Part shown: positions 3,260-4,243 of the stretch, piece by piece
Layout of the letters: every line of letters starts with the position of its first letter
Position numbering within the stretch: position 1 is the first letter of the stretch
Assembly: GCA_964016885.1 (NCBI GenBank)
Contig: OZ024741.1
Coordinates: 323,702,001-323,766,000 of the forward strand
Length of the DNA stretch: 64,000 bases
Source: Eledone cirrhosa
Taxonomy: Eukaryota
Reading direction: 5' to 3'
Notes under the pieces: model-generated
Database searches by the model: none
The model's input: only the letters and a program-made list of their open reading frames with translations
Told to the model about the DNA's origin: nothing
Position numbers and translations under genes: made by a program

Positions 3260-4243
3260 TACATATATATATATATACACATATATATATATATATATAT
3301 ATATATATATATATATATATATATATATATATATATATATATATATATATATATATATATATATAGGAACGAGTAGGACCCCAACGGCTGAGCTCAAGCC
3401 GTTTCGACGGCTAATTCTGGATTAGTCCAGAATTAGCCGTCGAAACGGCTTGAGCTCAGCCGTCGGGGTCCTACTCGTTCCTATTACCCACTCTACTACC
3501 CTAAGTATTGAGAACTTTGGTGCTTTATGGTCTACCTGGTTCCTTACCACATTTCCATCGATATATATATATATATATACATATGTATATATATACATAT
3601 ATATATATATATATATATATATATATATATATATATATATATATATATATATATATATATATATATATATATATATATATACATATGTACATATATATAT
3701 ATATATGTATATATATATATATATATATATATATATATATATATATATATATATATATATATACATACATATGTATATATATATATATATATATATATAT
3801 ATATGTATATATATATATATATATATATATATACATATATATATATACATATATATATATATATACATATATATATACATATATATATATATATACATAT
3901 ATATATATACATATATATATATACATACATATATATATAAATATATATATATATATATATATATATATATATACATACATATATATATATATATATATAT
4001 ATATATATATATATATATATATACATATATATATATATACATACATATATGTATATACATACATGTTTATATATATATATACATATGTATATATATATAC
4101 ATACATGTATATATATATATATATATATATATATATATATATATATATATATATATATATATATATATATATATATATATATATATATATACATATATAT
4201 ATATATATATGTATATACGTACATGTTTATATATATATATATA
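3260..4243. repeat. Long imperfect (TA)n arrays interrupted by a short insertion at 3366-3560
   Basis: Seen directly. Confidence 0.95.
3363..3560 (+). mobile_element. Fold-back short element inserted in (TA)n, containing the 3' half of a hammerhead ribozyme
   Basis: Near-perfect palindrome 3363-3484 followed by tail ...AAGTATTGAGAACTTTGG...CCACATTTCC. Homologous copies at 57927-58092 and 58141-58330, and a tail fragment at 25690-25762 (minus). Confidence 0.75.

What the first reader, a model, noticed from the sequence alone, without database searches (positions are those of the whole stretch)
3363..3484. Palindromes whose fold-back axis is the hammerhead stem II loop
Seen: the right arm reads AATTAGCCGTC-GAAA-CGGCT TGAGCTC AGCCG-TC-GGGGTC, i.e. 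stem II 3' strand, GAAA, stem III, GUC and stem I'. The expected 5' half (CUGANGA) is replaced by an inverted copy. Three copies (3363, 57925, 58139) have different centres and copy-specific variants present in both arms (GGAACG vs GGAACC; ACGGCTG vs ACAGCTG), which implies independent fold-back events at the same position. Inference: the cDNA snaps back on the ribozyme's own hairpin and self-primes, giving a mechanistic origin for inverted pLTRs.
Basis: partly seen in the sequence, partly recalled or inferred. Interest (0 to 1): 0.75.

Follow-up and report, generated by a model that had tools for sequence, protein, structure and literature searches.

The report
Penelope palindromes centred on RNA start
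These palindromes are three of at least nine thousand head-to-head stubs of one Penelope-like jumping gene; their centres pile up at one spot inside a hammerhead ribozyme's long loop, likely because that spot is the capped start of the element's RNA, which was likely copied twice, once from each cut DNA end, rather than folded back on the ribozyme's hairpin.

Summary
The palindromes are real and their axis is not random, but the proposed mechanism fails. They are inverted pLTR stubs of a Hydra-like Penelope element (21,701 exact tail matches; 9,515 such palindromes). Un-inverted copies show a hammerhead-type motif with a U3-A8 (3,313) or C3-A8 (1,690) core, not CUGANGA (14), and a 34-nt loop II. 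55 of 93 unbiased 5' breakpoints fall 11-24 nt upstream of GAAA, in the 3' third of that loop. The junction that snap-back on stem II would leave occurs 0 times, and in 20 of 66 pairs the tail-less arm holds sequence the tailed arm lacks. The hotspot matches a TATA-like box (31 nt upstream) plus TTAGT/TCAGT initiator. A non-native G sits before that A on both arms in 126 loci (C 11, A 2; neighbouring positions 5 and 2; native T 272). A second family shows the same signature (142 vs 0) upstream of its ribozyme. Best reading: two target-primed cDNAs run off the capped RNA start and are joined. No RNA data were available. The insertion shape is published; this scan noted the same reading before on other DNA (e1-10352193, e1-9849436, e1-8021559).

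The parts
3366..3421 (-). Copy 1 inverted arm: element positions -16 to the short 3' end (GTTCC|TA); one mismatch to the right arm at 3383
   Evidence: row L001
3422..3481 (+). Copy 1 direct arm from position -20; the inferred transcription start A(-18) is at 3424
   Evidence: start site inferred
3431..3469 (+). 3' half of the hammerhead-type motif: stem II 3' strand, GAAA (3442), helix III with palindromic loop, GUC (C17 3464), helix I 3' strand
   Evidence: sequence; pairing tallies in 67 distinct un-inverted copies
3482..3560 (+). One-sided tail (about 79 nt) ending in (TA)n; in full-length copies it runs on into the ORF leader
   Evidence: 50 of 68 inverted arms stop at the short end
57924..58093 (+). 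Copy 2: palindrome 57924-58034 (arms start near -14 and -12) with a shortened tail
58138..58332 (+). Copy 3: palindrome 58138-58254 (arms start near -17 and -11, 3 extra letters between), other subfamily, full tail
25690..25766 (-). Fourth, diverged (87%) tail fragment of the same family

Best explanation
Each palindrome is one insertion of a Penelope-like retrotransposon into (TA)n, made of two short head-to-head copies that end on the same spot, likely because two reverse transcriptions, primed from the two cut DNA ends at two internal start sites, both ran off the capped 5' end of the element's RNA and were then joined. Shown: element identity, two fixed 3' ends (+42 and +119 relative to G12 of GAAA), the breakpoint hotspot at -11..-24, arms that each can hold sequence the other lacks, and a position-specific extra G. 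Inferred: that A(-18) is the transcription start (TATA-like box 31 nt upstream overlapping the stem II 5' strand; TTAGT/TCAGT initiator), that the extra G is the copied cap, that both arms come from one RNA or one source locus, and that the join is made by trimming and end-joining or by the enzyme jumping from the RNA end onto the other cDNA's 3' end. The axis falls in loop II only because in this family the core promoter likely sits inside the ribozyme; an RNA started there would lack the ribozyme's 5' half.
For: Hotspot: 55 of 93 tailed arms start at -11..-24; per-base stop rate 0.089 there against 0.015 in the rest of the loop and about 0.005 elsewhere (P about 1e-5 for the within-loop contrast). 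Two templates needed: the tail-less arm reaches 5 nt or more further 5' in 20 of 66 pairs, the tailed arm in 18, 28 within 4 nt; extreme cases -110/-1413 and -22/-1018. Extra G: both arms with G at -19 in 126 loci, C 11 (7 look like a native TTCAGT subfamily), A 2; G one base earlier or later 2 and 5. G is not native: 5 of 81 G matches carry the native loop, against 6,742 with T; 0 of 79 un-inverted copies held have G there. Centres such as GGACTC-A-GAGTCC leave no room for a hairpin loop. Promoter geometry: 69 of 79 copies have 31 nt from the TATA-like T to A(-18); TATTTAAA in 9. Replication: family 2 has TATAAATA 30 nt before its hotspot, 6 nt upstream of CUGAUGA, with G on both arms in 142 loci against 0 for A or T; family 3 peaks about 69 nt upstream of its core (12 of 30 arms). 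Arms of one locus differ by 3.5 of 51 letters, arms of different loci by 11.1 (43 loci). Published support for parts: two internal RT start sites and extension of both strands (PMC11167929), untemplated G from the cap in L1/SVA (PMC3287187).
Against: No RNA 5' ends were seen. Arms with native T at -19 on both sides (272) outnumber double-G (126); they may be untemplated A-tails on the cDNA or starts at -19..-21, which I could not separate. The commonest TATA-like sequence (58 of 79) is the weak TATTCATA. Among 30 tight palindromes the tailed arm is the longer in 19, the shorter in 5, equal in 6, a skew that local self-priming would also give. 15 of 93 arms run past -25 and need other RNAs. Family 3 shows no clear TATA box. 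How copies regain the upstream TATA box is not explained. Arm similarity could partly come from gene conversion after insertion. Breakpoints from blastn are good to a few bases only.
Confidence: 0.72

Rival explanations
1. One reading: the cDNA snaps back on the ribozyme's own stem II and self-primes the second arm.
For: The hotspot does lie inside loop II; arms of one locus share subfamily letters.
Against: Predicted junction 0 in 3.0 Gb (one exact 23-mer of the young subfamily) against 9,515 palindromes; 1 of 93 arms ends at the stem II 5' strand; 20 of 66 pairs need two templates; in family 2 only 2 of 30 arms start within stem II against 10 of 30 at the TATA+30 site; family 3 peaks far upstream.
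Confidence: 0.04
2. One cDNA runs to the RNA start, then folds back locally on 1-4 matching or untemplated bases and copies itself; the second arm stops at the internal TA site.
For: In 15 of 30 tight palindromes the tailed arm reaches 3 nt or more further than the other, as a hairpin loop requires; templated-looking inserts occur at centres.
Against: 11 of the same 30 have equal or reversed reach; double-G centres with 0-1 spacer cannot be hairpins; tail-less arms up to 1.3 kb longer exist. It can account for a subset at most, and it still needs the RNA start to set the hotspot.
Confidence: 0.12
3. The hotspot is a stall or an RNA cut at a structure, not a transcription start; both cDNAs stop there.
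For: A sharp stop shared by both arms fits any fixed template end; 3 of 93 arms start at +22..+26 near the ribozyme cut.
Against: The ribozyme cut is at +22/+23, 40 nt from the hotspot; a stall would be expected at the entry to a stem, not beyond it; neither explains a G-only extra base at one position in two families or the TATA spacing.
Confidence: 0.07
4. Self-priming on an antisense transcript, as proposed for rotifer Penelope elements (PMC3846280).
For: Published interpretation of junction palindromes; gives head-to-head geometry.
Against: Does not predict a hotspot at sense-strand TATA+30 with an extra sense G on both arms, nor arms that each hold private sequence.
Confidence: 0.04
5. 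Assembly or library fold-back artefact.
For: Copy 1's own centre was not bridged by any listed record; no long reads were on offer.
Against: Thousands of loci with different centres, fixed unequal outer ends and arm mismatches; opposite-strand joints starting at -19..-17 also stand in raw reads of three runs of one study (several from a single start place).
Confidence: 0.01

Closest known systems
Insertion unit of endonuclease-bearing Penelope-like elements: inverted 5'-truncated pLTR, one-sided tail, junction palindrome (PMC8557442 and PMC3846280, passages read)
   Same: Head-to-head inverted copy, tail on one arm only, (TA)n target, partial tandems in longer copies.
   Different: Tail is about 79 nt rather than 30-40; here the 'truncation' points cluster at one site with an extra G; those papers leave the mechanism open or propose self-priming on antisense RNA.
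Hydra clade of PLEs, including Hydra-1_Obim (PMC8557442 section 11 and supplement hits)
   Same: C-terminal endonuclease, DKT, RWR for RWK, CxCx5C linker, (TA)n target; RT motifs line up by eye with the supplement's alignment.
   Different: Unit about 3.6 kb with a 1.3-kb 3' UTR; ribozyme not canonical; sequence and ribozyme differ from Hydra-1_Obim, so it is another family. No tree was built.
Minimal type I hammerheads of metazoan PLEs, U3-A8 variant of Cercyon (PMC4209133, parts 1-2 of 4 read)
   Same: U3-A8 core with free N7, G10.1-C11.1, 5-bp helix I, palindromic loop III.
   Different: 34-nt loop II holding a likely promoter, 6-bp helix III, internal loop at the base of helix II, and a prolific subfamily with a C3-A8 mismatch.
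PAc (Poseidon, Anolis) in vitro mechanism (PMC11167929, parts 1-2 of 4 read)
   Same: Two internal RT start sites bounding the tail, both DNA strands cut and extended, ribozyme cleavage not needed.
   Different: That work does not address where the cDNAs stop or how inverted copies are joined in the parts I read.
LINE-1 twin priming (recalled, not read here) and the cap-derived 5' G of L1/SVA (PMC3287187, passages)
   Same: Two primers from one target; extra G at the full-length 5' end.
   Different: L1 arms are mostly non-overlapping (recalled); here both arms copy the same stretch and both can carry the G.

Membership tests
EN+ Penelope-like element | Single ORF with PLE-type RT and GIY-YIG endonuclease linked to this end sequence | tested here: met
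   790-aa open frame (740 from Met) in L163 between two copies of the end sequence; motifs match the Hydra alignment by eye; 655 relatives at E<=1e-30, unnamed. Pfam and PDB gave no hit.
EN+ Penelope-like element | pLTR tandem or inverted arrangement with one-sided tail | tested here: met
   68 of 93 sampled arms have an inverted partner, 50 of them ending at +42; tandems in L163, L173.
Hydra clade | DKT, RWK-like motif, CxCx5C linker, C-terminal EN, (TA)n target | tested here: met
   SDKTG, LRWR, CNCPDGYICP (L092), AYIGLT near the C-terminus against section 11.
Hydra clade | Canonical hammerhead readily detected; generally under 3 kb | tested here: not met
   Core TTGANAA or CTGAGAA, 34-nt loop II; unit about 3.6 kb.
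Hydra clade | Placement within the clade on an RT tree | not tested
   Reference sequences were seen only in a supplement and were not used in a computation.
Type I hammerhead ribozyme | Conserved core with a 3-8 pair, GAAA and NUH | tested here: inconclusive
   Met by 3,313 U3-A8 copies with all four letters at N7; not met by 1,690 C3-A8 copies; the window's stubs lack the 5' half.
Type I hammerhead ribozyme | Helices I, II and III can pair | tested here: met
   302/335, 398/402 and 373/402 pairs in 67 distinct copies (helix II partly fixed by the search pattern, little covariation). Lowest-energy folds give helix I but not the whole fold, z about 0.
Type I hammerhead ribozyme | Self-cleavage at NUH | not testable with these tools
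   Needs an in vitro assay.
cDNA snap-back on stem II | Centre keeps the native loop and the stem II 5' strand | tested here: not met
   0 matches; centres hold only the loop's 3' part.
Run-off at a capped RNA start | Position-specific untemplated G before the first base | tested here: met
   126 vs 11 and 2; neighbours 5 and 2; family 2 142 vs 0.
Run-off at a capped RNA start | Capped RNA 5' ends at that base | not testable with these tools
   No run on record as RNA was listed.

The most novel reading that the evidence does not exclude
Penelope-like elements build their inverted pLTRs by double target-primed reverse transcription to the RNA cap, so junctions are a fossil map of their start sites; and in this family the core promoter is nested in the hammerhead (TATA-like box on the stem II 5' strand, initiator in loop II), so transcription itself splits the ribozyme: only read-through or 3' copies can fold, while the self-started RNA cannot cut its own front end.
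Probability: 0.5. Interest if true: 0.72.

Novelty: new variant of a known kind. Interest (0 to 1): 0.52.

Why it matters
How Penelope-like elements form their inverted repeats is named as unresolved in PMC8557442, and PMC3846280 proposed antisense self-priming. Thousands of junctions here favour a specific, testable alternative that extends the two-start-site result of PMC11167929: two cDNAs ending at the cap. It also gives a sequence-only way to map PLE start sites, and shows a ribozyme variant (long loop II, U3-A8 or mismatched core) that Rfam missed here. The individual stubs are likely inert.

Tried and rejected
Rfam scan: only microRNA-type chance hits among the 150 of 230 listed. Pfam and PDB sequence searches of the ORF: nothing; the protein atlas could not be used. 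No RNA holder listed. Read pile-ups at AATT sites in the RAD-seq runs look like restriction cuts and were not used as breakpoint evidence; depth steps up about 12-fold (raw + mates, X13) to 60-fold (X1 contigs) across -45 to -6, noted but not counted as copy number. An alternative ribozyme 5' half elsewhere in the element, joined by splicing: no CTGANGA and no GACGGCTA in the L173 unit. One-arm G test (644 G, 427 C, 268 A) is confounded by the partner arm and was replaced by the two-arm test. Ribozyme cut site as hotspot: 3 of 93 only. Energy folding did not single out the hammerhead fold; one of the three folds was of the wrong strand and is ignored. The first 60 loci were best hits and were left out of the 93-arm count; 14 of the 30 rows do come from them. 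Two duplicate rows were dropped (95 to 93), and 2 of 68 pairs with a tail on both arms were dropped before the 66-pair count. Paper searches for a published twin-primed or cap-ended PLE model (listings only) showed none; the library lacks most subscription papers.

Full report
Observation. The three palindromes are in the sequence as stated: 3363-3484 with 59-nt arms and one mismatch, 57924-58034 and 58138-58254, each flanked by (TA)n and each with its own centre. The right arm carries the 3' half of a hammerhead-type motif and continues into a tail to 3560. I number positions from G12 of GAAA (window 3442 = 0).

What the element is. The window lies in a 3.0-Gb genome; earlier notes of the scan call it an octopus, which I did not test. 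A 33-nt tail pattern has 21,701 exact matches. Walking upstream through longer copies gave a unit of about 3.6 kb with a 790-aa open frame in L163. Pfam and PDB searches were blank, but the motifs DKT, RWR, CxCx5C and a C-terminal YIG match the Hydra clade description and alignment in PMC8557442 (section 11 and supplement hits read), and 655 unnamed proteins match at E<=1e-30. Copies end at one of two places, +42 or +119, both at TA; usually one arm has each end (50 of 68 inverted partners end at +42). This is the published PLE unit of inverted pLTR plus one-sided tail (PMC8557442 and PMC3846280, passages), and the two ends fit the two internal RT start sites of PMC11167929 (parts 1-2 of 4).

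The ribozyme. Un-inverted copies do hold a 5' half, but not the one predicted. It reads ACCCC, a seven-letter core, G[C/T]T, CGGCTATT, then a 34-nt loop. Genome-wide the core is TTGANAA in 3,313 copies with all four letters at N7, CTGAGAA in 1,690 and CTGANGA in 14 (9 of 12 fetched belong to the family). U3-A8 is a described covariant in PLE hammerheads (PMC4209133, parts 1-2 of 4). Helices can pair in 90-99% of cells in 67 distinct copies, with little covariation, and energy folding does not favour the whole fold. So a hammerhead variant is likely, activity is untested, and the C3-A8 subfamily is predicted to be impaired.

Where the axes lie. From the first 100 tail matches listed by position I fetched 90 loci, giving 93 distinct tailed arms. 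55 start at -11..-24, 15 run further 5', 23 are shorter. The stop rate per base is 0.089 in that window, 0.015 in the rest of the loop and about 0.005 elsewhere. 9,515 loci match the exact palindrome with a gap of up to 24 nt.

Snap-back on stem II fails. It would need the cDNA to include the 5' strand at -53..-46 and would leave the native loop in the centre. That exact junction occurs 0 times and 1 of 93 arms ends there. In 20 of 66 pairs the tail-less arm reaches at least 5 nt further 5' than the tailed arm, in 18 the reverse, 28 within 4 nt. Since each arm then holds sequence the other lacks, neither can be a copy of the other. The shared variants are mostly subfamily letters (189 of 206); arms of a locus are closer to each other (3.5 of 51) than to other loci (11.1), which points to one source RNA or locus, or to later gene conversion.

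Why that spot. In 69 of 79 un-inverted copies a TATA-like stretch (TATTCATA 58, TATTTAAA 9, TATTTATT 5) begins 31 nt before the A of TTAGT or TCAGT at -18; the spacing and initiator consensus are recalled knowledge. A capped 5' end is known to leave an untemplated G in L1 and SVA insertions (PMC3287187, passages). Palindromes with a non-native G at -19 on both arms number 126, with C 11, with A 2, and with G at -18 or -20 only 5 and 2. The native base is T (6,742 matches; 5 of 81 G matches have the native loop). Against this, double native T counts 272, which may be A-tailing of the cDNA or slightly earlier starts. Typical double-G centres have 0-2 letters between the arms, too few for a hairpin loop.

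Control families from the same window. Family 2 (4629-4714, 27945-28086; 15,048 tail matches) has a canonical CUGAUGA hammerhead; 10 of 30 tailed arms start at -17..-26, at an A 30 nt after TATAAATA and 6 nt before the core, and 2 of 30 within stem II. Double G there counts 142, double A or T 0. Family 3 (58466-58698) peaks about 69 nt upstream of its core (12 of 30 arms, some from the same insertion) with no clear TATA box. The axis follows the likely start site, not stem II.

Mechanism. Inferred: the protein cuts both strands of (TA)n; each end primes on the RNA leader, at +42 and +119; both cDNAs run to the cap at -18; their ends are trimmed or tailed and joined, by repair or by a template jump. 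The stubs are therefore copies of the RNA's front end rather than randomly truncated 3' ends. Left open: 15 of 93 longer arms need other RNAs; among 30 tight palindromes the tailed arm is longer in 19 and shorter in 5, so local self-priming may make some joints; how the upstream TATA box is regained is unexplained. No run on record as RNA was listed. Raw DNA reads show opposite-strand joints near -18, but copy 1's own centre was not bridged.

Novelty. The insertion shape is published, and self-priming has been proposed for it (PMC3846280). Six paper searches (listings only) showed no cap-ended, two-primer model for PLEs; subscription papers and bioRxiv supplements were out of reach, and a preprint on retrozymes and PLEs (10.64898/2026.07.22.740005) was seen as passages only. 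The scan has reached this reading before on other DNA, apparently including this family; these are unchecked notes, not support. My start-site idea was written down, before those look-ups, and the cap test was planned, before the notes that mention a cap were seen. Verdict: new variant of a known kind, interest 0.52.

Noticed in passing
window 4629-4714 and 27945-28086: Palindromes of a second PLE-like family with a canonical minimal hammerhead and a tail sharing GTATTGAGTAC; TATA box 30 nt before its hotspot.
   Followed up: yes
window 58466-58698 (related motifs at 19275, 22406, 46515): Palindrome of a third family with a whole CUGAUGA hammerhead in each arm; 24,808 matches to a 20-nt core pattern.
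   Followed up: partly
window 3177-3269: Another (TA)n-flanked palindrome whose right arm also begins at TTTAGTC; family not identified.
   Followed up: no
window 4385-4450 and 52335 (minus strand): CTGAAGA hammerhead-like motif with a long stem II, a fourth family.
   Followed up: no
L152 (G000:C1:27006400-27010400): Direct tandem of 257-nt units running from -21 to just past the ORF start, retrozyme-like, again starting at the hotspot.
   Followed up: no
L162: Non-overlapping inversion like classical L1 twin priming: tailed arm and inverted upstream part meet at the same element position.
   Followed up: no
window 20402-21133 (-), 28888-29622 (-), 48089-49309 (+): Fragments of other PLE-like ORFs (linker and GIY-YIG-like motifs); the last lies between 405-nt inverted arms at 47670-49349.
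   Followed up: no
window 56141-57592 (+): 483-aa RT frame of a LINE (CR1/L2-like by recalled motifs) just upstream of copies 2 and 3.
   Followed up: no
window 13013-13456 (-): Frame resembling a Helitron helicase fragment (recalled motifs).
   Followed up: no
window 31200-35500: About 4 kb of AAC/CAC-type trinucleotide repeat.
   Followed up: no
genome-wide: A subfamily with a mismatched C3-A8 core is abundant and includes the near-intact ORF copies held, in line with cleavage being dispensable.
   Followed up: partly
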